A stretch of 64,000 nucleotides of DNA, taken from IMG/VR virus record IMGVR_UViG_3300021093_000007; one strand, 5' to 3'. Made by a program: the position numbers and the translations under genes. Origin of the DNA: a virus. The number at the start of each line of letters is the position of its first letter. The stretch's first letter is position 1. Positions 5,163 to 44,005 of the stretch are shown here, in pieces. Under the pieces are notes generated by a model. That model was not told the DNA's origin. It saw nothing but the letters and a program-made list of their open reading frames with translations, and searched no databases.

Positions 5163-6269
5163 ATGAGTATATTTGATGCTACACATAACCAATATGATAT
5201 GAACAAATATCCTTTTGGGGATATTTTATTGTCTTTAGTTCAAAAGTATTATCCAGAAGTAAAAGAACTTCAATACCTTCATGAACATGTTCCTTCACAT
5301 TCTGTTGGTGAACTAGTAAAACATCTAACTAAAGATCTTGTTGATACTGATTTTTATGTGTTGTTTGATAAAATGGTGGAGGAGTATGTCGTTCCTCAAT
5401 TAGATACAGATATTCTTATACAAAAGTTTGGTAACATCAGAGCAACAATTCCAGACCAAGATAAGAATGGAACAGTTCTCCCATTCCATCAAGGTAGATG
5501 GGTTGGTAATGGACTTGGATTGAGAACTGTTTGGTTGCCTTTTACAGAAACTTTTGATACTAATTCACTTCAGATTATTGGAATTGATAAGAGTAGGGAA
5601 ATTACTCGTAGATCTGAGGAGGAAAAATGGTCTCATGAAAAATTAGAAGAAGTCTGTGCTCAAGAATGTTATCCAGTAAGCATGTCTCCAGGGACATTCT
5701 TACTTTTTACTCAAGAGAATATTCATGGTGGAATTCCAAATAGAACTGGTAAAACCAGAATGAGTATTGACGTTAGGTTGTTATTGAGAGATGGTCAACC
5801 ACATAGAAAATGGCCAGGAGCATATTTTAGACGGTTACATGATACTGATATTCAATCCCGTAAAGTTGAGATTCTTCCACATGAAAATGTTATAACTTAT
5901 GCTGAGTATGAGGGATTTAAAACCAAATATATTGACTTATATTTTCAAACATTAACCGTTAGAGAATATTGCTCTAGAATGGGATATAAGTTCCCACATC
6001 AAACTGGAGATAATGAAGGAAGAAATCACTCATTCTTGGAGTATTCTATAAAGTATACTAATCTGGACCATATCATTTTGTTTAGTATTTTCTCTTTACC
6101 AGATGACAAATTCAGGAGATCCTATATAATGAATCTTGCATTAGAATACAACTGCAAACTTCATTTTGCTAATGAAGAATTTGTTCTTGATAGTCAAGAA
6201 ATGCTAGAAAAAATAGAGTATCTTAGATCTTTTACTAACGATTGGAGTAGTCCTGTAAATGAAAATTAA
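5163..6269 (+). CDS. StrG-like 2OG-Fe(II) oxygenase with C-terminal sporadic-carbohydrate-cluster-like domain
   Basis: PFHQG...TVWLPF...NIHGG.PNRTGKTRMSIDVR; C-terminal QTLTVREYC...FSIFSLP...LHFANE. Confidence 0.6.
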   Translation: MSIFDATHNQYDMNKYPFGDILLSLVQKYYPEVKELQYLHEHVPSHSVGELVKHLTKDLVDTDFYVLFDKMVEEYVVPQLDTDILIQKFGNIRATIPDQDKNGTVLPFHQGRWVGNGLGLRTVWLPFTETFDTNSLQIIGIDKSREITRRSEEEKWSHEKLEEVCAQECYPVSMSPGTFLLFTQENIHGGIPNRTGKTRMSIDVRLLLRDGQPHRKWPGAYFRRLHDTDIQSRKVEILPHENVITYAEYEGFKTKYIDLYFQTLTVREYCSRMGYKFPHQTGDNEGRNHSFLEYSIKYTNLDHIILFSIFSLPDDKFRRSYIMNLALEYNCKLHFANEEFVLDSQEMLEKIEYLRSFTNDWSSPVNEN

Positions 6270-6449: not shown

Positions 6450-6456
6450 ATAAATA
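6450..6456 (+). promoter_or_regulatory. T4-type late promoter
   Basis: ATAAATA about 30 nt upstream of the large fibre gene. Confidence 0.6.
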
Positions 6457-17824: not shown

Positions 17825-17990
17825 ACTGATACATCTAAAGATTCAAGCAGCAATGCGCGAAAAGTATTTTGATGAAGAACAAATGAAATATTTGGGAGTT
17901 CGTGATGGAGAACATTGGTATCTTGTTGCCAATGAGCACGAGGTTCCAGTATCAGCAATTGAAGAGTTTGATCAAGTTGAAGATGAATGA
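17799..17990 (+). CDS. Hypothetical protein
   Basis: ORF track, GAGG SD before the ATG. Confidence 0.55.
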   Translation: MLMKISQSELIHLKIQAAMREKYFDEEQMKYLGVRDGEHWYLVANEHEVPVSAIEEFDQVEDE

Positions 17991-18465
17991 ATTTTTAGTA
18001 GAGGATGAAGTAAGTAATTACTTTAATCTTCTACTTGAATTTGTTTCTAATTATCCAGAAGTTTTTAGAGATGAGAAGCAGAGTTCTTTGATTGGAAACT
18101 GTTTTTATACTTTAAATCTTTTGAATTATATTGATACGGAAATCTTTTATAACTATATTGATAAACTTCGTTTGTTATGTGAGGATTTTTCAAATAGACA
18201 ATTAAAGTATTTTTACGTTCATATGATTAATTACGAAAATGGTGGTAGAATGCACGTACATAAACATGATCATAATGAAGATTATAGTTTTATACTTTAC
18301 TTGAATTCTTGTAATGATGGAGAAACCATCCTTCATACAACTGAAGGTGAATATAAAGTTACTCCTGAAAGAAATAAAGTATTGCTATTTCCTTCAAACA
18401 TACCACATTCAGCAGCATACTCTAAATCTAAAAGAGTTCTTGTTGGTGGATTAAAAATTAACTAA
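17983..18465 (+). CDS. 2OG-Fe(II) oxygenase
   Basis: HVHKHD..EDYSFILYLN..GET...LLFPSNIPHSA..R. Confidence 0.72.
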   Translation: MNEFLVEDEVSNYFNLLLEFVSNYPEVFRDEKQSSLIGNCFYTLNLLNYIDTEIFYNYIDKLRLLCEDFSNRQLKYFYVHMINYENGGRMHVHKHDHNEDYSFILYLNSCNDGETILHTTEGEYKVTPERNKVLLFPSNIPHSAAYSKSKRVLVGGLKIN

Positions 18466-18471
18466 AAAATT

Positions 18472-18648
18472 ATGGAAAAACAACAAAAAAGACGCGATGC
18501 ATTTAATCTTTTTTATGAAAGCGTCTTAAAACCAGATCATGAGTTGCGTGAAGTTGCTCATGAGCAACAGTGTTATTATGAGTTGATGGATTGGAGACAA
18601 GAAATACTTACATATTTGGATAAACGAAGAATAGAAGAATTTAATTGA
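18472..18648 (+). CDS. Conserved small cyanophage protein
   Basis: 58-aa ORF read manually (FYESVLKPDHELRE). Confidence 0.6.
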   Translation: MEKQQKRRDAFNLFYESVLKPDHELREVAHEQQCYYELMDWRQEILTYLDKRRIEEFN

Positions 18649-18649
18649 T

Positions 18650-19468
18650 ATGTTAAAAGTACCTCACGAGATACAATTACATGTTACTCACTCTTGCAAT
18701 TTAACTTGTGAGGGATGTACACATTATATGAATCAGGGGCACTCTGGATCTATTACTTTAGAGGAAGCTGCAAAGTGGATGAGTAATTGGAATGATAAAA
18801 TTCTTCCGATGAGATTTACTTTAATGGGTGGCGAACCAGCATTACATCCAGATCTGACGGAATTCGTATATCTTGCTAGGGAGATGTGGCCTAACTCTTA
18901 TACAGAAGTTATTTCTAATGGATTTCATTTACATAAACATCCACATTTGTGGAAGGCTTTAAAGAGAACAAATACTATTCTCGGAGTATCTGTTCACTCT
19001 GATGGTGATCTTCAATACAGAGAAAAATTTGAGTCTGTATATGCGTTAATGAAAGAGTGGATTACAAAAGGTGCTCCTGTAGAAATACGACCATCAATTA
19101 TACATTGGATTAGGCAATATAAGGGTTTCGGTGATAAAATGGAACCATTTGAAGACAATGATCCGAAATCCAGTTGGAAGTGCTGTGTCTCTAAATTGTG
19201 TGTTCAATTACATGAGGGAAAACTTTGGAAGTGTCCAGCACTTGCATACTTACCAATGCAGGCACAAAAGTATAATTTGTCTGAAAAATGGGATCCATAT
19301 TTAAAATATGTTCCTTTAGATCATACCTGTAGTAAAGATGAACTAAAGCAATTTTTCACTAAAAAGGAAGAATCTTTTTGTTCAATGTGCCCCGCAAAAG
19401 AAGAATACTTTACTCCTGAGAATCCTCTCCTACCTCTAAGTCATTGGAAAAAGTTGTATGATACCTGA
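18650..19468 (+). CDS. Radical SAM protein, paralog 1
   Basis: CNLTCEGC, GGEP, ISNG, C-terminal Cys motifs (KLWKCP, CSMCP). Confidence 0.88.
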   Translation: MLKVPHEIQLHVTHSCNLTCEGCTHYMNQGHSGSITLEEAAKWMSNWNDKILPMRFTLMGGEPALHPDLTEFVYLAREMWPNSYTEVISNGFHLHKHPHLWKALKRTNTILGVSVHSDGDLQYREKFESVYALMKEWITKGAPVEIRPSIIHWIRQYKGFGDKMEPFEDNDPKSSWKCCVSKLCVQLHEGKLWKCPALAYLPMQAQKYNLSEKWDPYLKYVPLDHTCSKDELKQFFTKKEESFCSMCPAKEEYFTPENPLLPLSHWKKLYDT

Positions 19469-20111
19469 AGAGTTTGTGGAATATCCAGAAGATCCCCGAA
19501 ACGTAGAGCACTTTGATTTCTGTGGCAATACAATTTACAGGGCTTATAATATGCTAAGTAAATATGATCAATCTAATTTATTAAAAGAGATTGATAATGA
19601 ACTTGAAGTATGTGATGATAAGTGGGATTCCAGTGTAGAAGCAACAAATAGACTTCAAGATCGAAAATTATGGTATAAGACTAGTTGGACTAATTTTTTT
19701 AAATTAGTTAAGTCTCATTTGTATAACTATGCGGAGATAACCAACAATCCCAGGATCAAAGAATATCATGTTCAATCATACTGGGCGAAGAGAATGAAGG
19801 GAGTGAGTGAAGAGAATTATACTCACGAGTTATACATCAATTATGGGAATAGTCACAGTCATGAGCACTTTGATTTGGGTATGATATATTATCTTAAGAA
19901 TCCATCCAGAATATATGGAACTTTAATAGAAAACAAGGATAGAGAGATAATTATTCCTGGTGATGAGAATTCTCTTTTGATTCATCATTCTCATATAAAT
20001 CACCAACCAGTGATGCCACCACCAGTGGTTGCACAAAAGTATTATCGTTGTGTTATTGTGGTTGATTTTATGCACCCATCAAAGTTAAAAGCATATGAAC
20101 GCAGCAGATAA
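19458..20111 (+). CDS. Putative 2OG-Fe(II) oxygenase
   Basis: YWAK...HSHEHFDLGMIYYLKN...ENSLLI..SHINH..R. Confidence 0.6.
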   Translation: MIPEEFVEYPEDPRNVEHFDFCGNTIYRAYNMLSKYDQSNLLKEIDNELEVCDDKWDSSVEATNRLQDRKLWYKTSWTNFFKLVKSHLYNYAEITNNPRIKEYHVQSYWAKRMKGVSEENYTHELYINYGNSHSHEHFDLGMIYYLKNPSRIYGTLIENKDREIIIPGDENSLLIHHSHINHQPVMPPPVVAQKYYRCVIVVDFMHPSKLKAYERSR

Positions 20112-20328
20112 AATACAATACGCAAGTATTTTGACTAAAATCAATAAGGGGAAAATATCTGAGTTGACCGAAGATGATTATCTATGGTTAAAACAACATC
20201 CCACAATCATACCCGAAATCAGATGGCAAAGAAAAAAGTCTGAAGTAATGGAAATTAACAAAGATTGTAAGGGAACCATCAACGAGATATTGCATAATTT
20301 AGATTTATCAGATAGAATGATGAGGTGA
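20095..20328 (+). CDS. Hypothetical protein
   Basis: ORF track. Confidence 0.5.
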   Translation: MNAADKIQYASILTKINKGKISELTEDDYLWLKQHPTIIPEIRWQRKKSEVMEINKDCKGTINEILHNLDLSDRMMR

Positions 20329-20348
20329 TATAATTAGTATTGGTTCTG

Positions 20349-20543
20349 ATGCTTTCTATTTTTGATATTATGCACGACGAACGTCGTTATGGTTGGGTTG
20401 TTGATAAACGATATGATTGGATCAATATGCTTCATAAGATGGAAAAGTATAATCCAAAAAGATTTGATGAATTTCAATATTCTAAGGAGACAATTTATCA
20501 TCACTTAGACAGAATACAGCAAGAGCAAAATGTTTATGACTAA
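20349..20543 (+). CDS. Hypothetical protein
   Basis: ORF track; ATG start chosen. Confidence 0.55.
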   Translation: MLSIFDIMHDERRYGWVVDKRYDWINMLHKMEKYNPKRFDEFQYSKETIYHHLDRIQQEQNVYD

Positions 20544-20545
20544 GT

Positions 20546-21025
20546 ATGGAACATTTAAAGATTAAACCAAACCAAACTATTCTTGTTCTCAATTCAAGTT
20601 ATGAACCAATCAATTTTACTAATTGGAAGAGGGCGGTTATTTTAGTTTTAAAGGAAAAGGTTCAAGTCATATCTGAAAGAGTAATTAGATTACTGAGTTA
20701 TATTAAAGTCCCGATTAATTATGCTGCCAGGTGCCGACCATCAAGATCAATGATTTATAAAAGAGATCGTAATACCTGCCAATATTGTGGATCAACGCAT
20801 AGATTAACTATAGATCATGTTCTTCCCCGTAGTAAAGGTGGTGAGGATAATTGGGAAAATTTAGTTGTTGCATGTTCTACATGCAATACTAAAAAGGGGA
20901 ATAGACTATTAGAACATACTAATATGAGATTAGTTCGTCAACCACGAGCACCTTGGAATAAAGTTGCATTTGATTTGGCAAATTGTAACGTGCCTGAATG
21001 GAAAGAATATTCTTACGCTGACTAG
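20546..21025 (+). CDS. HNH endonuclease (McrA-like)
   Basis: LVLNSSYEP, RDRNTCQYCG, LTIDHVLPRSKGG, NLVVACSTCNTKKG. Confidence 0.92.
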   Translation: MEHLKIKPNQTILVLNSSYEPINFTNWKRAVILVLKEKVQVISERVIRLLSYIKVPINYAARCRPSRSMIYKRDRNTCQYCGSTHRLTIDHVLPRSKGGEDNWENLVVACSTCNTKKGNRLLEHTNMRLVRQPRAPWNKVAFDLANCNVPEWKEYSYAD

Positions 21026-21035
21026 GAGATTTTAA

Positions 21036-21587
21036 ATGTTTTTTCGTAAATTAAATAGACAATTTTTTGTAGGTTCCTATCTTAAAACTGGTAAAAAAAT
21101 TGAATATGGAATGGATACTCCATTTGGATTTGCTGGAATTAAATATTCATATATCAACACTAAAGATGAAAGCGGTCTTCTTGAGGTAATTCCAGAATCT
21201 TATAGGGACAACTGCACACTATCTTTGATGGAATTGAATTATAAGATTCCTCCTCATACTGATAGTAACATTGAGGCAATCATCAACTTTTATATTAAGA
21301 CAGATAGATGTGTAACTCAATTTTATTATCCACAAGAGGAAGCGTCCACAACTAAAATTGCAAATCAAACAGATGGTGCAATCTTCCATGAAGGTCATCT
21401 AAAAAAATCTGTAAGATTTATGGCACACCCTGGAGATGCATATCTCCTTGATGTATCTAAACCACACTCGGTCTATCCTATGGAAGCAGGACTCCCTGAT
21501 CGTAAAGCAATTTGTTTACAAATTCTTTATAAGTCTTTTGATGAAGCAGTAGAGATGTTAAAAGAGACAGGATACATTGATGAATAA
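21036..21587 (+). CDS. Cupin/2OG-Fe(II) oxygenase-like protein
   Basis: IPPHTD..IINFY...YLLDVSKPHSV..R. Confidence 0.62.
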   Translation: MFFRKLNRQFFVGSYLKTGKKIEYGMDTPFGFAGIKYSYINTKDESGLLEVIPESYRDNCTLSLMELNYKIPPHTDSNIEAIINFYIKTDRCVTQFYYPQEEASTTKIANQTDGAIFHEGHLKKSVRFMAHPGDAYLLDVSKPHSVYPMEAGLPDRKAICLQILYKSFDEAVEMLKETGYIDE

Positions 21588-22122
21588 TATAGAAGTTATT
21601 GATAATTATCTCCACAAAAGAGAACATCAATTAATTTATGATTACTTTACTGGTGCCTTAGATAAGGGAGATACCGCAAATTCTTGTACATGGACTTTTT
21701 TCCCTGGATGTAGTATGTTGGGTGATGAAGATAATTGGTTTCACTTTACACAATTAATTTTTGCCTCACATACTATTTTAAGTCCATCTTTTGATTTGAT
21801 GCGACCCATTATACAAAAAGAAAACATGTCAGCAATTGCTAGAATTAAGGCAAATTGTATGATAATGACTGAACAACTAAAGGTTTTTACTAATGGATTT
21901 CACTGTGATTTTAGGGGACATTTAACAACAGGAATTTATTATATAAATTCAAATGATGGATATACTTTGTTTGAAAATGGAACAAAAGTTAAAAGTGTTG
22001 CAAATAGATTCTGCAAATTCGATTGTAATTTAAAACACACTGCAACTACGTGTACAAATTCAACCACACGCTTATTAATTAATTTTAATTATCATTCTCA
22101 TCCTAAAGATGAAACAGTTTGA
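21580..22122 (+). CDS. 2OG-Fe(II) oxygenase-like cyanophage protein
   Basis: RIKAN..FHCD..TGIYYINSNDGYT.F..SVANR..H..R..INFNY. Confidence 0.7.
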   Translation: MNNIEVIDNYLHKREHQLIYDYFTGALDKGDTANSCTWTFFPGCSMLGDEDNWFHFTQLIFASHTILSPSFDLMRPIIQKENMSAIARIKANCMIMTEQLKVFTNGFHCDFRGHLTTGIYYINSNDGYTLFENGTKVKSVANRFCKFDCNLKHTATTCTNSTTRLLINFNYHSHPKDETV

Positions 22123-22960
22123 TACCAAACAGATAGAACTGCATGTTACTCATGCATGTAATTTTTCATGTGAGGGATGCTCTCATTACTCTAATCATGG
22201 ACACTCTGGCACACTAAATCTAGAAACTGCAAAAGAATGGCTATATATTTGGGGTCAAAGAGTCAAACCTAAAACATTTGTTATACTTGGTGGAGAACCA
22301 ACTCTTAATAAAGAATTGGTCGATCTTGTATATTTGGTGAGGATGATATATCCAGATCCATATACTCAAATTGATTTAGTTTCAAATGCTAGTTTTTTGC
22401 ACTTACATCCCAAGTTACCAAAAGCTTTGATTGCGACTCAAACTAATCTTGCAATATCAATTCATAGTACAACACATAAGGACTACGTAAAAAAGTTTAA
22501 AACGGGATATAATCTTGCCAAACAGTGGAAGCATGATCTTGGAGTTCATGTTGAATTTTGGGATTATACTAACGAACATTGGACTCCACAATATAAAGGG
22601 TTCGGTTCAAACATGATTCCTTACGAGGATAATAATTCTCGTAAAAGTTGGGAAATTTGTATCTCTAAACATGCTATTCAGTTGCATGAAAATAAACTTT
22701 GGAAGTGCCCAGCATTAGCATATTTGCCAATGCAATCTAAAAAATATAATCTTAGTGCTAAATGGGAACCATATTTAAAATATGCTCCATTAGATGTAAG
22801 TTGCACAGACGATGAATTGGAAGAATTTTTAGGTAGAGAAGATGAATCATATTGTTCAATGTGTCCCGCAAATAAGGTTAAAAATTTTGTAAAAGAAGAT
22901 CCAACACTACCAGTAAGTTATTGGGAGAAAAGATATGATAACATGGGGAATATCATCTAA
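22109..22960 (+). CDS. Radical SAM protein, paralog 2
   Basis: CNFSCEGC, GGEP; long near-identical blocks with 18650..19468. Confidence 0.88.
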   Translation: MKQFDTKQIELHVTHACNFSCEGCSHYSNHGHSGTLNLETAKEWLYIWGQRVKPKTFVILGGEPTLNKELVDLVYLVRMIYPDPYTQIDLVSNASFLHLHPKLPKALIATQTNLAISIHSTTHKDYVKKFKTGYNLAKQWKHDLGVHVEFWDYTNEHWTPQYKGFGSNMIPYEDNNSRKSWEICISKHAIQLHENKLWKCPALAYLPMQSKKYNLSAKWEPYLKYAPLDVSCTDDELEEFLGREDESYCSMCPANKVKNFVKEDPTLPVSYWEKRYDNMGNII

Positions 22961-24359
22961 TAGTCATAATGCTGCTATGTCAGTATTTGTAAAAGACAAA
23001 TTGGTATTCGCCAGTGAGAGTGAACGATTTAGTAAAATTAAAAATGACCCATATATATCGGACTCATTGTTAAATTATGCTTTGAGATATGGAAAACCAG
23101 AATTAATCTGCTGGTATGAGAATCCTCTAAAAAAGAGGATGAGGCAAATTTATGCTGGTCAAGGACCATTTGTTAATAATTTTGAGAGATATTACGAATG
23201 TGAACATAAATTCTTTAACCACCACTATACACATGCATGTGGTGGTTATTTTACCAGTAAATTTAAACATGCTGCTGTTCTTGTTATTGATGCTATTGGT
23301 GAATTCCAAACACTTACAATTTGGGAAGCATCTGGTAAAGACTTAAAGTTAAAATATGAATTAAAATATCCAAATAGTATTGGTTTATTATATTCTGCAA
23401 TGACTCAAAGATGCGGATTAAAACCTAATGAAGAAGAATATATCTTAATGGCATTATCTGCTTTAGGTGATAAGAGCAAGTTAAAAGATGCTATCTTTGA
23501 TGATTTTATAACTGATGATTTTAAATGTAAGGTCAATTTACATCGTGGATGTAAGAATTGGAGACCAGAAGAATCTAAAGAAGATATTGCAGCTGCTACT
23601 CAAGAAGTATATGAAATACTTTTTAATAATGCATTGAGATTGACTAAAAAATTAGTTCATACTAATAATCTTGTATTGATGGGTGGATGTGCTTTAAATT
23701 GTGTTGCTAATCGACATGCATATAACCACTTTAAGAACGTGTGGATAATGCCAGCACCTGGAGATAGTGGTTCTGCGATTGGTGCAGTGTTAGCACATAA
23801 AAAGAAACATATCAAATTTACTCCATATCTTGGATATTATTTGCCACATAAGCATACAAATATTCAAATAGTAAATTATTTGTATGAACATAAAGTTTGT
23901 GGTCTTGCGCGAGGTCGAGCAGAATTTGGACCAAGGGCATTGGGAGCAAGAAGTCTTATTGCAGATCCAACGGATCCAAATATAAAAGATAAGGTTAATA
24001 AGATAAAAAATAGAGAATCTTATAGACCATTCTCTCCAGTTGTTCCAATAGAGTTTGCAAATACTTATTTTGATATGCATCATGATTTAGTGGAGAGTCC
24101 ATTTATGCAACATGCTGTTAGATGTAAGTATCCAGAAAAGTTTCCTGGGATCGTGCATGTTGATGGGACAAGTCGATTGCAGACTGTTAAAAAAAGTGAT
24201 GCTCCTAGACTTTATAATCTTTTATATCAGTGGAAGGAAAAAACTGGACATCCTATGCTATTGAATACTAGTTTAAATATTAAAGGACAACCAATACTAA
24301 ATGATGAAATAGATTGTGATAAGTGGTCTAGACTTTACAATATTCAAATATTTTCATGA
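22935..24359 (+). CDS. Carbamoyltransferase (CmcH/NodU family)
   Basis: HHYTH, DAIGE, GGCALN, EFGPRALGARS, HVDGTSRLQTV, LNTSLN. Confidence 0.92.
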   Translation: MITWGISSNSHNAAMSVFVKDKLVFASESERFSKIKNDPYISDSLLNYALRYGKPELICWYENPLKKRMRQIYAGQGPFVNNFERYYECEHKFFNHHYTHACGGYFTSKFKHAAVLVIDAIGEFQTLTIWEASGKDLKLKYELKYPNSIGLLYSAMTQRCGLKPNEEEYILMALSALGDKSKLKDAIFDDFITDDFKCKVNLHRGCKNWRPEESKEDIAAATQEVYEILFNNALRLTKKLVHTNNLVLMGGCALNCVANRHAYNHFKNVWIMPAPGDSGSAIGAVLAHKKKHIKFTPYLGYYLPHKHTNIQIVNYLYEHKVCGLARGRAEFGPRALGARSLIADPTDPNIKDKVNKIKNRESYRPFSPVVPIEFANTYFDMHHDLVESPFMQHAVRCKYPEKFPGIVHVDGTSRLQTVKKSDAPRLYNLLYQWKEKTGHPMLLNTSLNIKGQPILNDEIDCDKWSRLYNIQIFS

Positions 24360-25138
24360 CAATATTAAAATTAACTGAAAGAATTGATAATAAATTATTA
24401 CTTCCAAATAAAGAATTACTTGTTGGAGTTTGCAAGTGGTTTGATCAAGATAGTGAAGTATTATATCAAAAAAATTTAAAAGAACTTCCAAAAGAGTGGA
24501 GATTTAGGACAAAAACCGTTGAATATAATATTAACAGTGCTGGTTATCGAACAAAAGAATTTGATAAAATTAATTGGGCAAAATCGATTGTAGTTTTTGG
24601 AGATTCTTGCGTTTTTGGTGTTGGGTTGCCTGAGGAAGATACATTATGCTATAAAATACAGAAAGCACTTAATATTCCTGTAGTTAATTTGGGTGCTGCA
24701 GGGTCGTCTTCACTATATACTCTTCATAATGCTGCATTATTAAGTGAATCATATCCAACACCAAGAGCAATTGTAAGTTTGTGGACCTCTCCATATAGAC
24801 TACCATATTACACCAATGATAGAGTTATGAACTGTGGTAATTGGAATTATGATCGATTTAAAATTGGTTATTATTGGAATGAAAACAAGGATAATGCGAT
24901 AATCCAATTAAAATTAAATGCCATAGCATTTAGAGAAATGTGGAAGAATAGGACTAATTATTTTGAACTAAGTTTATTCCCAGATACCGCTCAGATTTTA
25001 CAATGTAATTTTGTAAATCAAATTGATTTTGCCAGAGATATGAGGAAGCAAAAGTCTGGATATTATTCCGCACATCCAGGAGAGAAGACAAATCAATTTG
25101 CCGCAGAAAAGGTAATTGCTGGGTTGCAGATTGGGTGA
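24356..25138 (+). CDS. SGNH/GDSL-like protein, paralog 1
   Basis: INSAGYR, FGDSCVFGVG, NLGAAGSS, DFARD...HPG. Confidence 0.65.
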   Translation: MTILKLTERIDNKLLLPNKELLVGVCKWFDQDSEVLYQKNLKELPKEWRFRTKTVEYNINSAGYRTKEFDKINWAKSIVVFGDSCVFGVGLPEEDTLCYKIQKALNIPVVNLGAAGSSSLYTLHNAALLSESYPTPRAIVSLWTSPYRLPYYTNDRVMNCGNWNYDRFKIGYYWNENKDNAIIQLKLNAIAFREMWKNRTNYFELSLFPDTAQILQCNFVNQIDFARDMRKQKSGYYSAHPGEKTNQFAAEKVIAGLQIG

Positions 25139-25174
25139 TTCTGTGTTATCATAATAAGAGATGCTATAGAGGAC

Positions 25175-25324
25175 ATGGCAATCCGCACATTTTCTGACAA
25201 AAATTCAAATGATTGGAGTTGGGAAGAGACTCCAGAAACAATTGAAGCATTAAAGCAACTTCATAATACTGTAACTCAGGTAAATGAGAATAAAGTTCTG
25301 AAACCAAAGCCTGTAAAGAAATGA
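25175..25324 (+). CDS. Small hypothetical protein
   Basis: 49-aa ORF, GAGGA SD, TTGCAG-N17-TATCAT promoter upstream. Confidence 0.55.
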   Translation: MAIRTFSDKNSNDWSWEETPETIEALKQLHNTVTQVNENKVLKPKPVKK

Positions 25325-25533
25325 CAGAAGATAAGAAGTTGATTGATGATTGCTTTTACGTTGATTCAAAAAAATATGGACTCTGGTATTCAACAGACAA
25401 AGAAGGTAACGGACTTATCACGGCTCTCACTGAAAAGTCATGTATATCAGGAACCCGTTTTTATCTTAAAGGACGGCAGGAAGGTTGGTCTTAGACCAAA
25501 ACCTATGAAGGTAATGTAGATGGAAAACTCTAA
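25321..25533 (+). pseudogene. Small cyanophage gene with in-frame TAG at codon 58
   Basis: ...RFYLKGRQEGWS*TKTYEGNVDGKL*; TAG at 25492-25494. Confidence 0.5.
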
Positions 25534-25687
25534 AGAATATCCATATCATGAATTAGACCCAACAACTCCTTGGTATGAGTGGTTGATGTATTGTGAGATA
25601 TGTCATCAATTAAACGTTGTTGGGCAACCATCTTTAGGTAGATTCGCTGCATATAGACGTTATTTAAAATCGGTAGGTGTTTTATGA
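25520..25687 (+). CDS. Small hypothetical protein
   Basis: 55-aa ORF read manually (PWYEWLMYCEICHQL). Confidence 0.6.
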   Translation: MENSKEYPYHELDPTTPWYEWLMYCEICHQLNVVGQPSLGRFAAYRRYLKSVGVL

Positions 25688-25950
25688 TGATTAAAAGATT
25701 TGTTGACTGGTTCTTTGCATCAGACAAAGAGAAGAAAGTGATTGTAGATTGTGCTGACAACTTTGTTGGAAGTAAGTTTACTTTACTTGACCTTATCCAG
25801 TCTTTGGAAACAAGATTGGAGAGACTTGAACGGGAAAACGTAGAGACAACAAATGCTCTCTATGAGATGGAGAATAGACTTCAAGCACAAATCGATGCTC
25901 ATTGCCCACCAATATATAGTATGAATGATTATTCTTTGGGAGACAAGTAA
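25684..25950 (+). CDS. Coiled-coil hypothetical protein
   Basis: ORF track, ATGA overlap. Confidence 0.55.
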   Translation: MMIKRFVDWFFASDKEKKVIVDCADNFVGSKFTLLDLIQSLETRLERLERENVETTNALYEMENRLQAQIDAHCPPIYSMNDYSLGDK

Positions 25951-26123
25951 TGTACGAACTTGATGATTTTGAAAAAGCACTTGCTCATTTCGGAACTCGT
26001 GTTGATGTTATCATTGCTATGGAAATGGGTGGTAAAATTGATGGTCAATCTGCATATAAAGAAATTAAGGCAGAATTAAAAGAACTTAAAAGAGCAAAAA
26101 AGCAATACGCTAAAGAACAGTGA
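25950..26123 (+). CDS. Conserved small cyanophage protein
   Basis: 57-aa ORF (FEKALAHFGTRVDVIIAMEMGGKI..AYKEIK). Confidence 0.65.
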   Translation: MYELDDFEKALAHFGTRVDVIIAMEMGGKIDGQSAYKEIKAELKELKRAKKQYAKEQ

Positions 26124-26896
26124 AGGTTAATCCCAATATCATAAGATCTATCAATTCTTCTGATTTTATTCCTCTTCCAAACATAACAGTTCAAAATTTT
26201 GAACAATTCAAATGGAAAGGTGATGATATATCTGGATCTTGGGATTTTTTTGGATCAGATGATTATAATAATTATCAAAATAATTTAAAAATACAACCAT
26301 TAAATTGGTATTATCGACGCAATCAAATAAAATATACTCTTAATTCGCATGGGTATAGAGCGAAGGAATTTAAAGATATTAATTGGAAAGATTCTATAGT
26401 TATTTTTGGTTGCTCATATATCTTTGGGACTGGTGTGGATGATTCACATACAATACCTGCAGTCTTAGAAAAACTTTGTAAAACACCTGTAATTAATTTG
26501 GGAATGGGTGGGTCATCTATACAATTTGCCTTACATAATTCTTTAATGCTTTATAAAAAGTATGGTTCTCCAAAATGTGTCATTTATGGGATGCCAGGTA
26601 TTACAAGATATTTGATGTATCAAAGAAATCATGTAGAATTAAAACTTGATTGTGATAATACTAAACTTGTAGATCATTTGGTTCCTTTTAATCTTGTAAA
26701 TGTTGAGTTAATTAGGAATTTATGGGAAAATAAGAGTCAATATTATGAATTTTCATTATTTCCAACAACATCAAAAATATTAGGATGTGATTTGTTTCAT
26801 CCTATACCCGATGATTATGCTAGGGACATGAGTCATCCTGGTATTGAATCCAACAAATTAATCGCACAAAAGATTTACAACACCTTCAGTTTATGA
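26120..26896 (+). CDS. SGNH/GDSL-like protein, paralog 2
   Basis: LNSHGYR, FGCSYIFGTG, NLGMGGSS, DYARDMSHPG. Confidence 0.65.
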   Translation: MKVNPNIIRSINSSDFIPLPNITVQNFEQFKWKGDDISGSWDFFGSDDYNNYQNNLKIQPLNWYYRRNQIKYTLNSHGYRAKEFKDINWKDSIVIFGCSYIFGTGVDDSHTIPAVLEKLCKTPVINLGMGGSSIQFALHNSLMLYKKYGSPKCVIYGMPGITRYLMYQRNHVELKLDCDNTKLVDHLVPFNLVNVELIRNLWENKSQYYEFSLFPTTSKILGCDLFHPIPDDYARDMSHPGIESNKLIAQKIYNTFSL

Positions 26897-27008: not shown

Positions 27009-27311
27009 ATGACAAAAATTTATGAGTCTCCTGATAAAGGAGAGACTATTAGAGAAAGAGAATTTAATCAGGCATCTGAACCTAAAAAGACCTGGACTTT
27101 AGAAGTTGAGAAGGTTCATGAAGAATATTTTATTAGTCTCCCAGATGATCTGCTTGATGCTGCCAACTTAAAAGAGGGTGACAATGTAGAATGGGTTGAC
27201 AATGGAGATGGTTCATTTATTATGAAAAAACTTCCTCCAATGACTTATGATGATATGATTGCTGAGGGTTGGACAATGACTGCAGATGGATTTTGGATAA
27301 AGGATAAATAA
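27009..27311 (+). CDS. AbrB/MazE/SpoVT-like DNA-binding protein
   Basis: ISLPDDLLDAANLKEGDNVEWVDNGDGSFIMKK. Confidence 0.7.
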   Translation: MTKIYESPDKGETIREREFNQASEPKKTWTLEVEKVHEEYFISLPDDLLDAANLKEGDNVEWVDNGDGSFIMKKLPPMTYDDMIAEGWTMTADGFWIKDK

Positions 27312-27337: not shown

Positions 27338-27901
27338 ATGGCAGCAACATTAACCGCTACTGGTTTAACCTTTGATGACGGAACTTCATTAAATTCAAAG
27401 TATGGAGTTTTGGCACAAGGAACAGTATCGGTATTTTTTCAATCCTCAGCACCAACTGGATGGACACAAGTTACCACTCATAATGATAAAGCACTGAGAG
27501 TTGTGTCTGGAACTGGTGGTGATTTTGGATTTGGTGGAGTATCTGGTGCTGGTGGATTATCATTTAGTACAGTATTTCCAAGTAGCACTTCTCCAGTTAG
27601 TGTTAATTTTAATGCAAATGTTCCTGTTAGTGGAACTGTTGGAGATACAACATTAACAACTTCACAAATACCGAATCATACTCATAACTCTCTTACTGGT
27701 GGAAGCGCAAATGCTGCTAGTGGAGGATCTAGTTTTTTGGTAAGTGGAACAAATAATACTGGTGGAGTTGTGTCTCCTGGGGGAATTGGAGGATCACATA
27801 ATCACCCATTCAGTGGTAATATAAATTTTACTGCAACTGGTAGTGGAACAATTGACCTGAGACTACAGTATATCGACGTTATTCTCTGCTCTTTTAATTA
27901 A
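27338..27901 (+). CDS. Small tail-fibre-like protein, paralog 1
   Basis: FFQSSAPTGWT..HNDKALRVVSG, TTLTTSQIPNHTH, HNHPF; late motif ATAAATA at 27304. Confidence 0.75.
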   Translation: MAATLTATGLTFDDGTSLNSKYGVLAQGTVSVFFQSSAPTGWTQVTTHNDKALRVVSGTGGDFGFGGVSGAGGLSFSTVFPSSTSPVSVNFNANVPVSGTVGDTTLTTSQIPNHTHNSLTGGSANAASGGSSFLVSGTNNTGGVVSPGGIGGSHNHPFSGNINFTATGSGTIDLRLQYIDVILCSFN

Positions 27902-27902
27902 T

Positions 27903-28478
27903 ATGGCAAGACTAACTTCTACTGGCATTTTGTTTGATATTGCAGATACTGCAAATTCTATTAATAGTTTTTATTGGTTGTATCCTGCTGGTACTGTAAA
28001 AGTCTTTTATCAGTCGGCAGCACCAACGGGATGGACTAAAATTGCTACTCAAAATAATAAAGCATTAAGGGTTGTTTCTGGAACAGGTGGTGGATCTGGA
28101 GGAACAACAAATTTTACAACAGTGTTGTCATCAGCAGCTGGTAATTTATCTGTAAATGTTAATAATACATTTCCAGTTCAAGTTGTCTCTGGACTTGGAC
28201 AAAACGTTGGCGATACAACATTATCTTTATCCCAATTACCAGATCACGTTCACTTTGGACTCACTGGATCACCAGGAGGATCTGGTGCTACACCTTTTAG
28301 TAATACTGGTGGTAGACTTGTTTTTGGTAGTACAGCTACAGGTCAAATGATAGAAAACACTGGTGGTGGTTCTCATACACACCCCTTTAGTGGATCTGCA
28401 ACCATGAATGAGACAAGAACTTTTGGATTGGATTTGTCGGTGCAATACATAGACACCATCATTTGCTCATTAAACTAA
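27903..28478 (+). CDS. Small tail-fibre-like protein, paralog 2
   Basis: FYQSAAPTGWT..NNKALRVVSG, TTLSLSQLPDHVH, HTHPF. Confidence 0.75.
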   Translation: MARLTSTGILFDIADTANSINSFYWLYPAGTVKVFYQSAAPTGWTKIATQNNKALRVVSGTGGGSGGTTNFTTVLSSAAGNLSVNVNNTFPVQVVSGLGQNVGDTTLSLSQLPDHVHFGLTGSPGGSGATPFSNTGGRLVFGSTATGQMIENTGGGSHTHPFSGSATMNETRTFGLDLSVQYIDTIICSLN

Positions 28479-42847: not shown

Positions 42848-42874
42848 ATAATAACACTGGATAATTTGCGCGAC

Positions 42875-44005
42875 ATGATTAAATTTCATCAAGATTTTGC
42901 TGCTACTGGAACTGGATTAGGATATCAAATATCTTCATATATGTTAATGCGTTCCATTGCAAATAGAACGGGGTATAGTTATACTATCAATACAAATGGA
43001 TTAAAAGCACTTAGAAATACATTTACCAATTTACAATTTAACAGCATTAAAGATGAACTTGATGCGGATTTAAAACCAATTGAGTTTTTGGATGATAACT
43101 CTTTTGAAGAAGTTGTTGCAATGGTGGAGGATAATTGTGAATTATATGGTTATCCCACTGTTAAGAGTATGGTTGATCCTGCTAATTTTGAATCTGTTAA
43201 AAAAGAACTGCACTTTAGACCAGAGATTGTTGAGAAGTGCCAAAAGTTTATGTCCCAATTTGATGGGCAAGAAGTAGTATCAATGCATCTACGTAGAGGT
43301 GACTTTGAAGATCTTCAATCTGGAATGTTTTTAATTGATGATGATTACTATAAAGAAGCATTAGAGTTGCTACCAAAAGATATTCCTGTTCTTATTTTTT
43401 GTAATGTAAAAGATTATATTTTAACTCATCCTATTCTAACTGCAAGTGATCCAGAGAGATTTACTTTTGTTCTTGATATATTCAATGATAATGAATTTAT
43501 TAATTGTGATGTAGGGCAAGAGTTGGATAGATTGGTTGATGCTTCTGGAGAGTGTAGATTTGATTATAAAGCAGCATTAGCTAAACACGCTTATGATAAT
43601 CTAATACCATCCACCCCGACTCAAGAGGAGTTAAATCAAGAGATGGTGAGACTTGCAAAAGAATTACATCCATTATATAAAAAGAAGATTGCAAATAATC
43701 TTTATAATTATTCATTTGAACTTTGTTTAATGTCAATGTGTGATTATCATATTATGGCAAATAGTTCATTTGGTATGTGGGGCGTTCAATTGTCAAATAC
43801 TAAGAAAGTAATATATCCTAAGTATTGGATGCAAGGTCATGATGAAGAGACAAGGAATGCTTTTGCAGAAATTGGTTTAGGTGCGATTAAAATAGATCTT
43901 GGTGGTTATGATCAAACCAGAGACCTTGCAGAATATATTATTGATAAACCACACTACATAGGATTAGAGAATCCAGATCAACGTTCATTTACAATTGTTA
44001 GTTAA
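42875..44005 (+). CDS. Alpha-1,2-fucosyltransferase-like glycosyltransferase (GT11)
   Basis: GLGYQ, SMHLRRGD, YYKEAL, LMSMCDYHIMANSSFGMWG; CTAAATA upstream. Confidence 0.8.
   Translation: MIKFHQDFAATGTGLGYQISSYMLMRSIANRTGYSYTINTNGLKALRNTFTNLQFNSIKDELDADLKPIEFLDDNSFEEVVAMVEDNCELYGYPTVKSMVDPANFESVKKELHFRPEIVEKCQKFMSQFDGQEVVSMHLRRGDFEDLQSGMFLIDDDYYKEALELLPKDIPVLIFCNVKDYILTHPILTASDPERFTFVLDIFNDNEFINCDVGQELDRLVDASGECRFDYKAALAKHAYDNLIPSTPTQEELNQEMVRLAKELHPLYKKKIANNLYNYSFELCLMSMCDYHIMANSSFGMWGVQLSNTKKVIYPKYWMQGHDEETRNAFAEIGLGAIKIDLGGYDQTRDLAEYIIDKPHYIGLENPDQRSFTIVS

What the first reader, a model, noticed from the sequence alone, without database searches (positions are those of the whole stretch)
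17983..26896. Biosynthetic-like enzyme cluster: duplicated radical SAM, four oxygenase-like genes, carbamoyltransferase, duplicated SGNH-like proteins
Seen: two closely related radical SAM genes with extra C-terminal Cys motifs, each flanked by 2OG-Fe(II)-type genes. Genes 21036-25138 overlap in a continuous chain ending in a carbamoyltransferase and an SGNH-like gene. A small-fibre module and a tandem oxygenase follow. Established: CmcH/NodU enzymes O-carbamoylate hydroxyls, and some phage homologs act on 5-hydroxymethylcytosine; SGNH folds include acyltransferases and esterases. No dCMP hydroxymethylase or TET/JBP gene is visible in this window. Inference: a hydroxylate-then-decorate pathway whose substrate (virion fibres, glycans, host surface or DNA) is unknown.
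Basis: partly seen in the sequence, partly recalled or inferred. Interest (0 to 1): 0.72.

Follow-up and report, generated by a model that had tools for sequence, protein, structure and literature searches.

The report
Cyanophage sugar-tailoring enzyme island
A T4-like marine cyanophage carries a tightly packed, conserved block of enzymes (two SpeY-like radical SAM enzymes, a carbamoyltransferase, two SGNH esterase-like proteins and several small oxygenases) that most likely remodels a sugar or glycan inside the infected cell. The enzyme types are known, but this pathway and its target have never been studied.

Summary
Window 17983-26896 is one dense run of + strand genes. It has two paralogous radical SAM genes (52% identical), a two-domain NodU/TobZ-type carbamoyltransferase, two paralogous SGNH-fold proteins (34% identical), an HNH homing endonuclease and small ORFs. 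Two oxygenases are supported; two more are oxygenase-like by motif only.

The radical SAM enzymes are twitch-domain enzymes. Their model matches SpeY, a sugar-alcohol dehydrogenase of spectinomycin synthesis, far better than anything else (Z 21.8; next 13.3).

Gene order is kept across about 57 metagenomic cyanophage loci. The radical SAM, carbamoyltransferase and SGNH genes also recur in rearranged form in distant phages, there among nucleotide-sugar enzymes and glycosyltransferases. Bacterial homologues of the radical SAM gene sit in O-antigen-like clusters.

A complete related genome has no thymidylate-synthase or TET homologue, so DNA carbamoylation is unlikely.

Best reading (about 0.55): a cytoplasmic carbohydrate-tailoring module that oxidises or epimerises, carbamoylates and (de)acylates a sugar. 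The target glycan is unknown. The main rival is peptide or protein modification, as in crocagin synthesis.

First readers of this scan noted what looks like the same cluster in four other genomes; none was followed up.

The parts
17983..18465 (+). 2OG-Fe(II) oxygenase 'a' (160 aa from the ATG at 17983; the longest ORF starts at a GTG at 17902)
   Evidence: Pfam 2OG-FeII_Oxy_3 E 6e-7, over the cut-off; PHROGs 274, 61 and 81. Present in nearly all related loci.
18472..18648 (+). Conserved 58-aa protein that always follows oxygenase 'a'
   Evidence: 27 distinct orthologues. Invariant E16, S17, K20, D22, L25, R26, A29, H30, Q32, C34 along the whole length. Function unknown. It does not look like a leader/core precursor peptide.
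18650..19468 (+). Radical SAM A (272 aa), twitch type
   Evidence: Pfam Radical_SAM 5.9e-11. 52% identical to radical SAM B. Same conserved Cys set. Own clade with 97/95 support. Missing in some relatives.
19458..20111 (+). 217-aa oxygenase-like protein, unconfirmed
   Evidence: Invariant HxH...H...R pattern. 20 of 30 language-model neighbour clusters fall in a set in which PF13759 is carried by part of the members (36% in the best one). No Pfam hit in any of 19 members, and hhalign against PF13759-positive neighbours is not significant. Present in nearly all relatives.
20095..20543 (+). Two small ORFs (77 and 67 aa)
   Evidence: The 77-aa ORF is conserved at 32-88% identity in many loci. The 67-aa ORF is found in fewer. 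Function unknown.
20546..21025 (+). HNH homing endonuclease; a mobile insert, not part of the pathway
   Evidence: Pfam HNH 1.9e-16, PHROG 16726 1e-56. Absent from loci L036-L051, which keep the flanking genes.
21036..21587 (+). 183-aa oxygenase-like protein, motif only
   Evidence: H74 is invariant; D76, H144 and R156 are nearly invariant in 26 homologues. D76 and H144 are lost together in the same two sequences. No Pfam, PDB or hhalign support. 127 homologues with E <= 0.01; none of the 120 listed has a Pfam family.
21577..22122 (+). 2OG-Fe(II) oxygenase 'b' (181 aa)
   Evidence: PHROG 274 E 6e-36. That family is also hit by the two Pfam-positive 2OG proteins of the window. H109, D111, H154 and R165 are invariant in 19 homologues. 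One or two tandem copies in relatives.
22109..22960 (+). Radical SAM B (283 aa), SpeY-like twitch enzyme; core of the module
   Evidence: Pfam. Cys17/21/24 plus Cys184/200/249/252, and Cys232. AF2 pLDDT 90.9. SpeY: Foldseek E 4e-11, TM 0.68; VIA Z 21.8, rmsd 2.9, 247 residues aligned, next best 13.3. PDB profile hit to SpeY 3.8e-12.
22935..24359 (+). O-carbamoyltransferase of the NodU/CmcH/TobZ type (474 aa)
   Evidence: Pfam Carbam_trans_N and Carbam_trans_C. PHROG 1601 5e-99. PDB relatives include NovN, GdmN and TobZ, E 1e-33 to 1e-43, with conserved motifs in both domains. Absent from L041-L051.
24356..25138 (+). SGNH-fold protein A (260 aa); always directly follows the carbamoyltransferase, or radical SAM B where that is missing
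   Evidence: Invariant S84, G88, G90, N111, G113, S118, N125, R227, D228, H240. Model pLDDT 83. All top Foldseek hits are SGNH/GDSL enzymes. VIA: CgnD Z 14.5, other esterases Z 12-13.8. Family has 5835 representatives and no Pfam model.
25175..26123 (+). Run of small ORFs; the 88-aa and 57-aa ones are conserved
   Evidence: 25684-25950 and 25950-26123 have orthologues in many loci. Function unknown.
26120..26896 (+). SGNH-fold protein B (258 aa), a paralogue found only in a subset of relatives
   Evidence: 34% identical to protein A. Keeps Ser (as GCS), the N-x-G block and D-x-x-H. Found only in L009-L016, L035 and L052-L057.
27338..28478 (+). Two paralogous Gly/Thr-rich 187- and 191-aa proteins; putative late structural (fibre-like) genes next to the island
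   Evidence: Late-promoter motif ATAAATA at 27304. Always downstream of the island in relatives. Only a weak tail-fibre similarity, E 0.33. No Pfam hit.

Best explanation
The island is a cytoplasmic carbohydrate-tailoring module of a lineage of T4-like cyanophages. It has a conserved core and optional parts.

Shown:
- The enzyme classes.
- Intact catalytic motifs.
- Conserved gene order and overlapping genes.
- No predicted membrane segment or signal peptide in any of the proteins.

Inferred mechanism:
1. Radical SAM B uses a 5'-deoxyadenosyl radical to remove the hydrogen from a sugar carbinol carbon. Its auxiliary (twitch) cluster takes the electron. The product is a keto-sugar, as with SpeY and BtrN. 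If a hydrogen is returned from the other face, the product is an epimer, as with HygY. The nearly invariant fifth Cys, C232, is a candidate hydrogen donor.
2. The small Fe(II)/2-oxoglutarate oxygenases encoded next to each radical SAM gene oxidise or hydroxylate further positions.
3. The carbamoyltransferase makes carbamoyl-adenylate from carbamoyl phosphate and ATP in its YrdC-like domain. Its Kae1-like domain then O-carbamoylates a sugar hydroxyl, as in TobZ.
4. The SGNH protein is always the next gene. It removes or transfers an O-acyl group on the same residue, for example freeing the acceptor hydroxyl.
5. Radical SAM A and its oxygenase partners carry out a parallel or earlier step.

The substrate is probably a nucleotide-, lipid- or protein-linked sugar. 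It would belong either to a glycan built by the phage's own GDP-sugar and glycosyltransferase genes or to a host surface polysaccharide precursor. The position between tail-fibre genes suggests a role in adsorption or superinfection, but this is speculation.
For: Radical SAM enzymes:
- SpeY, a twitch dehydrogenase acting on a sugar secondary alcohol according to the PDB title, is by far the closest solved structure.
- The four auxiliary-cluster Cys are invariant.

Contexts of radical SAM homologues:
- Bacterial, 44% identical: GT25/GT4/GT2/Wzy/PhyH/methyltransferase/YdjC cluster.
- Bacterial, 49% identical: directly after a GT2, near GT87, GH15 and a polysaccharide pyruvyl transferase.
- Phage S-SCSM2R: among five annotated glycosyltransferases and an amidinotransferase.
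- Phage L083: with DegT.
- Phage L114: GT47, epimerases, DegT and a UDP-sugar dehydrogenase. It also has a carbamoyltransferase 62% identical to the window's with an adjacent SGNH-like gene.
- Phage L077: GDP-mannose 4,6-dehydratase, a SPASM radical SAM, the twitch radical SAM, carbamoyltransferase, SGNH-like gene and a GT25.
- L089: two SGNH-like genes, an epimerase/dehydratase and a carbamoyltransferase.

Other evidence:
- The carbamoyltransferase's closest solved relatives act on sugars and natural products.
- The SGNH model matches carbohydrate esterases at Z 12-13.
- Gene order is conserved in about 57 loci.
- A complete relative and an 87%-identical relative encode two tandem epimerase/dehydratase genes plus GT11 and GT25.
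- The window itself has a 'sporadic carbohydrate cluster' oxygenase/LIC12192 fusion and a GT11-like gene.
- There is no TS or TET homologue in the complete relative.
- All proteins are predicted soluble.
- Sullivan et al. 2010 (PMC3037559) already reported LPS-type gene clusters near tRNA genes in large cyanomyoviruses.
Against: - The island itself has no glycosyltransferase or nucleotide-sugar gene; the case rests on fold and on neighbouring genes in other genomes.
- SpeY shares only about 19% identity. Twitch and SPASM enzymes that act on peptides (SuiB, SkfB) are the next-best matches.
- The best structural match of the SGNH protein is CgnD, a leader-peptide hydrolase. CgnD belongs to a RiPP pathway that also uses a 2OG dioxygenase and a carbamoyltransferase.
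- Two bacterial contexts of the radical SAM gene are uninformative.
- In Ralstonia phage RsoM2USA, the closest carbamoyltransferase from a cultured phage sits with a radical SAM gene beside DNA ligase, DHFR and a helicase.
- Two of the four 'oxygenases' have no family support.
- The window's own whole genome could not be searched.
Confidence: 0.55

Rival explanations
1. The island modifies a peptide or protein. The target could be a small ribosomal peptide or the neighbouring fibre-like virion proteins. Oxygenases would hydroxylate side chains, the carbamoyltransferase would O-carbamoylate the new hydroxyl, the radical SAM enzymes would epimerise or cross-link, and the SGNH protein would act as a peptidase, as in crocagin biosynthesis.
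For: CgnD is the top structural match of the SGNH model and the only one that also covers its N-terminal extension (Z 14.5, 193 residues aligned). The crocagin pathway combines a 2OG dioxygenase, the CgnD hydrolase and the carbamoyltransferase CgnI (PMC10070186). Twitch and SPASM radical SAM enzymes often act on peptides (SuiB, SkfB and EpeE at Z 11-13). Conserved small ORFs lie in the island. Two fibre-like late genes always lie downstream.
Against: SpeY scores Z 21.8 against 13 or less for peptide-modifying enzymes. CgnD's Z is within 1 of ordinary esterases. The 58-aa ORF is conserved along its whole length and shows no leader/core pattern. Homologues of the three enzymes lie among nucleotide-sugar genes, not RiPP genes.
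Confidence: 0.15
2. The island hypermodifies phage DNA. An example would be carbamoylation of 5-hydroxymethylcytosine to 5-carbamoyloxymethylcytosine, with the oxygenases and radical SAM enzymes creating or elaborating the base.
For: A phage carbamoyltransferase makes 5cmC from 5hmC (PMC8670742). The island lies next to a methyltransferase/helicase module and contains an HNH gene. In RsoM2USA the closest cultured-phage carbamoyltransferase lies with a radical SAM gene beside DNA ligase, DHFR and a helicase.
Against: DNA-type carbamoyltransferases co-occur with thymidylate-synthase homologues, while the others sit with glycosyltransferases. No Thymidylat_synt match was found in a complete 246.5-kb relative carrying the cluster, nor in four partial relatives; the control search found the family in 10 of 14 named genomes. 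No Tet_JBP match was found either, but that control was blind. The HNH gene is an optional insert. The TS homologues of RsoM2USA are more than 100 kb from its carbamoyltransferase.
Confidence: 0.07
3. The island makes or alters a diffusible small molecule, such as an aminocyclitol- or aminoglycoside-like compound or another metabolite, rather than a polymer-bound glycan.
For: SpeY, BtrN and TobZ all belong to aminoglycoside pathways. S-SCSM2R carries an annotated inosamine amidinotransferase next to its radical SAM homologue. The island has no glycosyltransferase.
Against: No scaffold-forming enzyme (cyclitol synthase, NRPS or PKS) is in the island. Bacterial homologues sit in O-antigen-type polymer clusters with Wzy and glycosyltransferases.
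Confidence: 0.1
4. There is no common pathway. The genes are independent auxiliary genes that merely accumulate in a hypervariable region. The oxygenases might simply draw down 2-oxoglutarate, as proposed for cyanophages.
For: Several members come and go among relatives: radical SAM A, the PF13759 oxygenase, the carbamoyltransferase, SGNH B and the HNH gene. Sullivan et al. 2010 proposed a 2OG-level role for the many phage oxygenases.
Against: The core genes overlap. The radical SAM, carbamoyltransferase and SGNH genes recur together in rearranged, distant loci. SGNH A always directly follows the carbamoyltransferase or radical SAM B.
Confidence: 0.08

Closest known systems
SpeY (PDB 7WZV/7WZX/7X0B), twitch radical SAM dehydrogenase of spectinomycin biosynthesis. 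Its relatives HygY (epimerase) and BtrN are known to me from memory and from titles cited in PMC10991966.
   Same: Same size class, a radical SAM core followed by a twitch domain, and a full-length structural match (Z 21.8, rmsd 2.9, 247 of 283 residues). Two auxiliary-cluster Cys and the G-x4-C-P segment align in sequence.
   Different: About 19% identity. Phage-encoded, two paralogues, and no aminoglycoside pathway around them. Substrate and outcome (ketone or epimer) are unknown.
TobZ / NodU / CmcH / NovN / GdmN O-carbamoyltransferases
   Same: Kae1-like N domain plus YrdC-like C domain. Conserved motifs in both domains: HHxxH and a GD-containing loop in the N domain; EFGPRALG and HVD-x-TSR-x-Q in the C domain.
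   Different: 474 aa against 570-700 aa, with a shortened and divergent N domain. Far below the NCBIfam NodU cut-off (144 against 1000 bits). At most 42% identical to any carbamoyltransferase from a cultured phage.
SGNH/GDSL hydrolases: carbohydrate esterases (CE2/CE3, Est24), the O-acetyltransferases PatB/OatA, and CgnD
   Same: SGNH fold with conserved Ser, Gly/Asn and Asp-His blocks.
   Different: No Pfam model hits it. It has an extra N-terminal region of about 75 aa and forms a large unnamed family (5835 representatives) found mostly in phage-like contigs in the three contexts sampled.
LPS/glycan gene clusters of large cyanomyoviruses (Sullivan et al. 2010, PMC3037559; S-SCSM2R annotation)
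   Same: A T4-like cyanophage, a hypervariable region near tRNA and tail-fibre genes, and many 2OG oxygenases with a carbamoyltransferase.
   Different: This island has no glycosyltransferase. It centres on a radical SAM / carbamoyltransferase / SGNH core that has not been described.
5hmC carbamoyltransferase pathway (Yang et al. 2021, PMC8670742)
   Same: A phage-encoded carbamoyltransferase of the same superfamily.
   Different: Its defining partner, a thymidylate-synthase-type dCMP hydroxymethylase, is absent from a complete relative.
Crocagin RiPP pathway (CgnC dioxygenase, CgnD hydrolase, CgnI carbamoyltransferase; PMC10070186)
   Same: The same three enzyme classes, and CgnD is the top structural match of the SGNH protein.
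   Different: No CgnB/CgnE-type peptide-binding proteins and no recognisable precursor were seen by Pfam or by eye; they were not searched for specifically. Radical SAM enzymes are added, and homologues have carbohydrate gene contexts.

Membership tests
Radical SAM superfamily | CX3CX2C motif binding the SAM-cleaving [4Fe-4S] cluster, within a partial TIM barrel | tested here: met
   Pfam PF04055 over the cut-off for both genes. C17/C21/C24 conserved. The model matches radical SAM structures.
Twitch-domain radical SAM enzymes (SpeY/BtrN/HygY type) | A short C-terminal domain with Cys ligands for one auxiliary [4Fe-4S] cluster | tested here: met
   C184, C200, C249 and C252 are invariant in 23 homologues. 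The full-length match to SpeY includes the C-terminal domain. Actual cluster binding cannot be tested here.
SpeY orthologue (tetrahydrospectinomycin dehydrogenase) | Same substrate and reaction, within a spectinomycin pathway | tested here: not met
   About 19% identity. No spectinomycin genes nearby. It is likely to work like SpeY but is not a member of that pathway.
NodU/CmcH/TobZ O-carbamoyltransferases | Two-domain architecture (Carbam_trans_N + Carbam_trans_C) with conserved catalytic motifs | tested here: met
   Both Pfam domains are far over their cut-offs. Motifs align with solved members.
NodU equivalog (NCBIfam NF041651) | Score over the curated cut-off of 1000 bits | tested here: not met
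   143.8 bits.
5hmC carbamoyltransferase system | Co-occurrence with a thymidylate-synthase-type dCMP hydroxymethylase | tested here: not met
   No PF00303 match in the complete relative G001 or in four partial relatives, with a working control. The window's own full genome is not held. The diagnostic residues from the paper were not compared.
SGNH/GDSL hydrolase superfamily | SGNH fold with Ser (block I), Gly/Asn (blocks II/III) and Asp-x-x-His (block V) | tested here: met
   Fold matches at Z 12-14.5. S84, N111/G113, N125, D228 and H240 are invariant. In protein A an insertion separates Asp and His. No Pfam model reaches significance.
Fe(II)/2-oxoglutarate oxygenases: 17983-18465 and 21577-22122 | HxD/E...H iron triad plus a basic residue binding 2OG, on a double-stranded beta-helix | tested here: met
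   Pfam PF13640 for the first gene. PHROG 274 and invariant H109/D111/H154/R165 for the second. The folds were not modelled.
Fe(II)/2-oxoglutarate oxygenases: 19458-20111 and 21036-21587 | The same triad and fold | tested here: inconclusive
   Conserved His/Asp/His/Arg patterns and language-model neighbours. No Pfam, PDB-profile or hhalign support.
RiPP biosynthetic cluster | A precursor peptide gene with leader and core, plus recognition elements | tested here: inconclusive
   Small conserved ORFs exist. The 58-aa one is conserved throughout and shows no leader/core split. No RiPP recognition domain was seen by Pfam.

The most novel reading that the evidence does not exclude
Marine phages carry a widespread, so far unnamed glycan-editing toolkit: a twitch radical SAM enzyme, an O-carbamoyltransferase and a Pfam-less SGNH family, with DUF6071 as a possible distant relative of that family. 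It would install an oxidised or epimerised, carbamoylated sugar on the virion's adsorption apparatus or on host envelope precursors, and so affect host range or superinfection. This would be the first carbohydrate radical SAM chemistry assigned to a virus. Oxygen-sensitive radical SAM enzymes and oxygen-dependent 2OG oxygenases would then work side by side in an oxygen-producing host. Because radical SAM A and the PF13759 oxygenase can each be lost, they may be partly interchangeable routes to the same step.
Probability: 0.3. Interest if true: 0.75.

Novelty: new variant of a known kind. Interest (0 to 1): 0.56.

Why it matters
Cyanomyoviruses are among the most abundant viruses in the ocean. 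Their many 2OG oxygenases and carbamoyltransferases have had no assigned function since 2005-2010.

This work ties them to a conserved core: a SpeY-like radical SAM enzyme, a carbamoyltransferase and an SGNH protein. It gives a concrete, testable chemistry, namely a keto or epimerised, carbamoylated and (de)acylated sugar.

It points to a large SGNH-like family that has no Pfam model (5835 cluster representatives). It also largely removes the DNA-modification reading for this lineage.

If the target is a virion or host-surface glycan, the island bears on adsorption, host range and superinfection exclusion in Prochlorococcus and Synechococcus phages.

Tried and rejected
- Nucleotide search of the island against 50,697 phage records found no match. 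SGNH protein A found nothing by tblastn against cultured phages.
- The window's own genome is not held, so whole-genome questions were asked of relatives instead.
- Assigning the 183-aa and 217-aa proteins to the 2OG oxygenases all failed to reach significance. Tried: Pfam on every family member, PDB profile searches, and hhalign against the two supported oxygenase families and the PF13759 neighbours.
- hhalign of the SGNH family against one DUF6071 protein gave only E 0.025 over 47 columns. This is a lead, not a result.
- The Tet_JBP search found nothing, but its control rang in none of the 14 named genomes, so it carries little weight.
- A GT2 search in relatives was negative. GT11, GT25 and epimerase searches were positive.
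- Bacterial contexts in Mesorhizobium and one other contig were uninformative.
- Papers on SpeY and HygY are not in the library. What I say about their reactions rests on PDB titles, a reference title and memory.
- The sigma-70 promoter scan gave barely more sites than shuffled sequence (87 against 72.5, sd 7.8) and was not used, apart from noting candidates.

Full report
**What the window is.**
All credible genes around the finding lie on the + strand, and G+C is about 33-36%. Three tRNA genes are present. A 1939-aa tail-fibre gene carries an S74 chaperone domain. Short nucleotide matches to tail-fibre and tRNA regions of Synechococcus and Prochlorococcus myoviruses, and a gp6 baseplate gene, identify a T4-like cyanomyovirus with no close cultured relative. 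The island itself has no nucleotide match among 50,697 phage records.

**Checking the observation.**
From 17983 to 26896 the genes are packed with gaps of at most 36 nt. Genes 21036-25138 overlap by 11, 14, 26 and 4 nt.
- Pfam confirms Radical_SAM for 18650-19468 and 22109-22960.
- Pfam confirms both carbamoyltransferase domains for 22935-24359.
- Pfam confirms 2OG-FeII_Oxy_3 for the gene starting at 17983.
- The two radical SAM proteins are 52% identical.
- The two SGNH-like proteins are 34% identical.

Of the four 'oxygenase-like' genes, two are supported:
- 17983-18465 is supported by Pfam.
- 21577-22122 hits PHROG 274 at 6e-36. The window's Pfam-positive 2OG proteins also hit that family, and it has invariant H109, D111, H154 and R165.

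The other two remain unconfirmed:
- 19458-20111 has an invariant HxH...H...R pattern. Its language-model neighbours fall mostly in clusters where part of the members carry PF13759.
- 21036-21587 has a nearly invariant HxD...H...R pattern. The Asp and the distal His are lost together in the same two homologues.
- Neither protein gets any Pfam, PDB-profile or profile-profile support.

**The radical SAM enzymes.**
A search of 5.8 billion proteins found 398 homologues. They are mostly from marine phage contigs, but some are bacterial at 44-49% identity. In 23 diverse members the CX3CX2C motif is conserved. Four further Cys (184, 200, 249, 252) are invariant and a fifth (232) is nearly so. This is the pattern of a single auxiliary cluster, a twitch domain.

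A profile of the family hits one solved protein best, 7WZV, at 3.8e-12. The AlphaFold model (pLDDT 90.9) matches the same entries. They are titled 'Twitch Radical SAM Dehydrogenase SpeY'.
- Foldseek: E 4e-11, TM 0.68 over 284 columns.
- VIA-align: Z 21.8, rmsd 2.9 Å, 247 residues aligned. The next matches are SuiB, BtrN, SkfB and viperins at Z 13.3 or below.

SpeY, HygY and BtrN act on secondary alcohols of sugars or cyclitols in aminoglycoside pathways. This rests on PDB titles, a reference title seen, and my memory.

A maximum-likelihood tree puts radical SAM A and B in separate, well-supported clades. A third phage clade and a bacterial clade also appear. The duplication is therefore old.

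**The carbamoyltransferase.**
It is a compact (474 aa) member of the NodU/CmcH/TobZ family. The conserved motifs of both domains align with NovN, GdmN and TobZ. It is far below the NodU equivalog cut-off. It is at most 42% identical to any carbamoyltransferase from a cultured phage.

**The SGNH proteins.**
No Pfam model hits them. In the family alignment the block I Ser, the N-x-G block, a further Asn and an Asp...His pair are invariant. The model (pLDDT 83) matches only SGNH/GDSL enzymes.

In the second look, CgnD scores Z 14.5 with 193 residues aligned, including the N-terminal extension. Ordinary esterases and carbohydrate esterases score Z 12-13.8 over the core only.

An exhaustive HMM search shows a large unnamed family: 5835 cluster representatives at E <= 0.001.

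I fetched 74 IMG/VR loci encoding radical SAM homologues and searched them with all the window's island proteins. In about 57 loci, with radical SAM B at 95% down to 66% identity, the gene order is kept:
- oxygenase a
- the 58-aa protein
- [PF13759 oxygenase]
- [radical SAM A]
- the 217-aa protein
- [HNH]
- the 183-aa protein
- oxygenase b (one or two copies)
- radical SAM B
- [carbamoyltransferase]
- SGNH A
- [SGNH B]
- the two fibre-like genes
- a 111-aa gene, a 266-aa gene and a 384-aa 2OG protein

Bracketed genes come and go.
- The carbamoyltransferase is missing in L041-L051, where SGNH A directly follows radical SAM B.
- Radical SAM A is missing in several sub-lineages.
- The PF13759 oxygenase is present in most relatives, including a 95%-identical one (L009:3263-3811). 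It is absent from this window.

The genes also associate in architectures that are not simply inherited:
- L077 has GDP-mannose 4,6-dehydratase, a SPASM radical SAM and the twitch radical SAM. The carbamoyltransferase (61% identical) and an SGNH-like gene follow on the opposite strand, and a GT25 lies nearby.
- L089 has two SGNH-like genes, an epimerase/dehydratase and a carbamoyltransferase.
- L114 has an S74 fibre chaperone, GT47, a 2OG protein, an epimerase, the radical SAM, DegT, a UDP-sugar dehydrogenase and an epimerase/dehydratase. It also has a carbamoyltransferase (62% identical) with an adjacent SGNH-like gene.
- In marine virus AG-345-D19 a carbamoyltransferase is directly followed by a radical SAM homologue.
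- L088 and L090 have the SGNH-like gene beside SPASM radical SAM genes.

Random assortment is therefore refuted.

**What the contexts say about the substrate.**
- A bacterial radical SAM homologue sits in an O-antigen-type cluster with GT25, GT4, GT2, Wzy, PhyH, methyltransferases and YdjC.
- Another bacterial homologue sits directly after a GT2, near GT87, GH15 and a polysaccharide pyruvyl transferase.
- In cultured phage S-SCSM2R the homologue lies among five annotated glycosyltransferases and an amidinotransferase.
- A complete related genome (246.5 kb, terminal repeats) and an 87%-identical relative both encode two tandem epimerase/dehydratase-family genes followed by a GT11. They also encode GT25 genes elsewhere in the genome.
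- The window itself has a fusion of the 'sporadic carbohydrate cluster' oxygenase with an LIC12192-type protein, and a GT11-like gene.
- Sullivan et al. 2010 described LPS-type clusters near tRNA genes in large cyanomyoviruses. They listed carbamoyltransferases and many 2OG oxygenases as unexplained cyanophage genes.
- No island protein has a hydrophobic segment typical of a signal peptide or membrane helix. The chemistry also needs SAM, a reductant, ATP and carbamoyl phosphate. The pathway should therefore act in the cytoplasm, on activated or carrier-bound sugars or on assembling proteins. It should not act on mature surface LPS (inference).

**Rivals.**
- *DNA modification.* The known 5hmC carbamoyltransferases co-occur with thymidylate-synthase homologues, whereas carbamoyltransferases on unmodified contigs sit with glycosyltransferases (PMC8670742). 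All known pyrimidine hypermodifications start from such a homologue or from TET. The complete relative has no Thymidylat_synt match, with a working control. It has no Tet_JBP match either, but that control was blind. A caution: in Ralstonia phage RsoM2USA the closest cultured-phage carbamoyltransferase lies with a radical SAM gene and three DUF6071 genes beside DNA ligase, DHFR and a helicase. Its TS homologues are more than 100 kb away.
- *Peptide or protein modification.* Crocagin biosynthesis uses a 2OG dioxygenase, the SGNH-like hydrolase CgnD and a carbamoyltransferase (PMC10070186), and CgnD is the best match of the SGNH model. However, its lead over ordinary esterases is within 1 Z unit. 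The 58-aa ORF does not look like a precursor. SpeY outscores all peptide-modifying radical SAM enzymes by 8 Z units.
- *Small-molecule product, or no common pathway.* Both remain possible at low probability.

**Expression.**
The T4-type late-promoter core ATAAATA is strongly depleted in the window: 5 sites against 27 expected. All five lie on the + strand within about 240 nt upstream of an ORF start. One is at 6450, before the tail-fibre gene, and one at 27304, before the fibre-like pair. None lies inside the island. The island is therefore not an obvious late transcription unit, though read-through from 6450 cannot be excluded.

**Verdict.**
The finding is real and coherent. Its parts belong to known enzyme superfamilies, but the conserved phage core of a SpeY-like twitch radical SAM enzyme, a carbamoyltransferase and an SGNH protein has not been described. 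It is a new variant of phage-encoded glycan tailoring.

The most likely function is oxidation or epimerisation, carbamoylation and (de)acylation of a sugar (about 0.55). The target glycan is unknown.

First-stage readers of this scan noted what looks like the same cluster in four other genomes; none of those notes had been followed up.

Noticed in passing
window 3427, 6450, 27304, 57245, 59393: ATAAATA (the T4-type late-promoter core) occurs only 5 times against about 27 expected. All five are on the + strand within about 240 nt upstream of an ORF start, including the 1939-aa tail-fibre gene and the fibre-like pair. They look like genuine late promoters under strong counter-selection elsewhere.
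   Followed up: partly
window 18648-18650, compared with L009:3263-3811: A PF13759 (2OG-FeII_Oxy_5) gene lies between the 58-aa gene and radical SAM A in most relatives, including a 95%-identical one. It is missing here. Other relatives keep it but lack radical SAM A. Each can be lost, which hints at partly redundant oxygen-dependent and oxygen-independent steps.
   Followed up: partly
window 5163-6269: One 368-aa protein joins the NCBIfam 'sporadic carbohydrate cluster 2OG-Fe(II) oxygenase' (TIGR04324, 2e-22) to the LIC12192-family partner (TIGR04323, 3e-14). It lies just after the tRNA genes. Both scores are below the curated cut-offs.
   Followed up: partly
window 47835-49013: A 392-aa beta-ketoacyl synthase (Pfam ketoacyl-synt N and C domains, 8e-26 and 5e-21) lies in the early region of a cyanophage. 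This is an unusual auxiliary gene.
   Followed up: no
window 42866-44005 and 2039-2716: A GT11-like (fucosyltransferase family) gene, E 1.6e-8, and a further PF13759 oxygenase, E 2.5e-11. Relatives carry a stronger GT11 directly after two epimerase/dehydratase genes, a likely GDP-6-deoxyhexose pathway.
   Followed up: partly
L109 (Ralstonia phage RsoM2USA, MG752970.1 123-129 kb); L090: DUF6071 proteins (three copies) flank a 460-aa radical SAM gene and a carbamoyltransferase in a soil jumbo phage. DUF6071 also sits beside the SGNH-like family and radical SAM genes in a marine contig. DUF6071 may be a distant SGNH-like relative (hhalign E 0.025 only).
   Followed up: partly
window 20546-21025: An HNH homing endonuclease is inserted in the middle of the island. 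It is present in some relatives and absent in others with the same flanking genes.
   Followed up: yes
window 27009-27311: A 100-aa protein with a MazE/AbrB-type (SpoVT) domain, E 2.7e-7, lies directly upstream of the fibre-like late genes. A strong sigma-70-like site (TTGACA-16-TATTAT) lies inside it at 27196-27223.
   Followed up: no
L087 12735-15361; L077 1966-3171; L088 7990-9240: Many related phage loci carry further radical SAM genes of a different type (SPASM domain, about 400 aa) close to the twitch enzymes.
   Followed up: no
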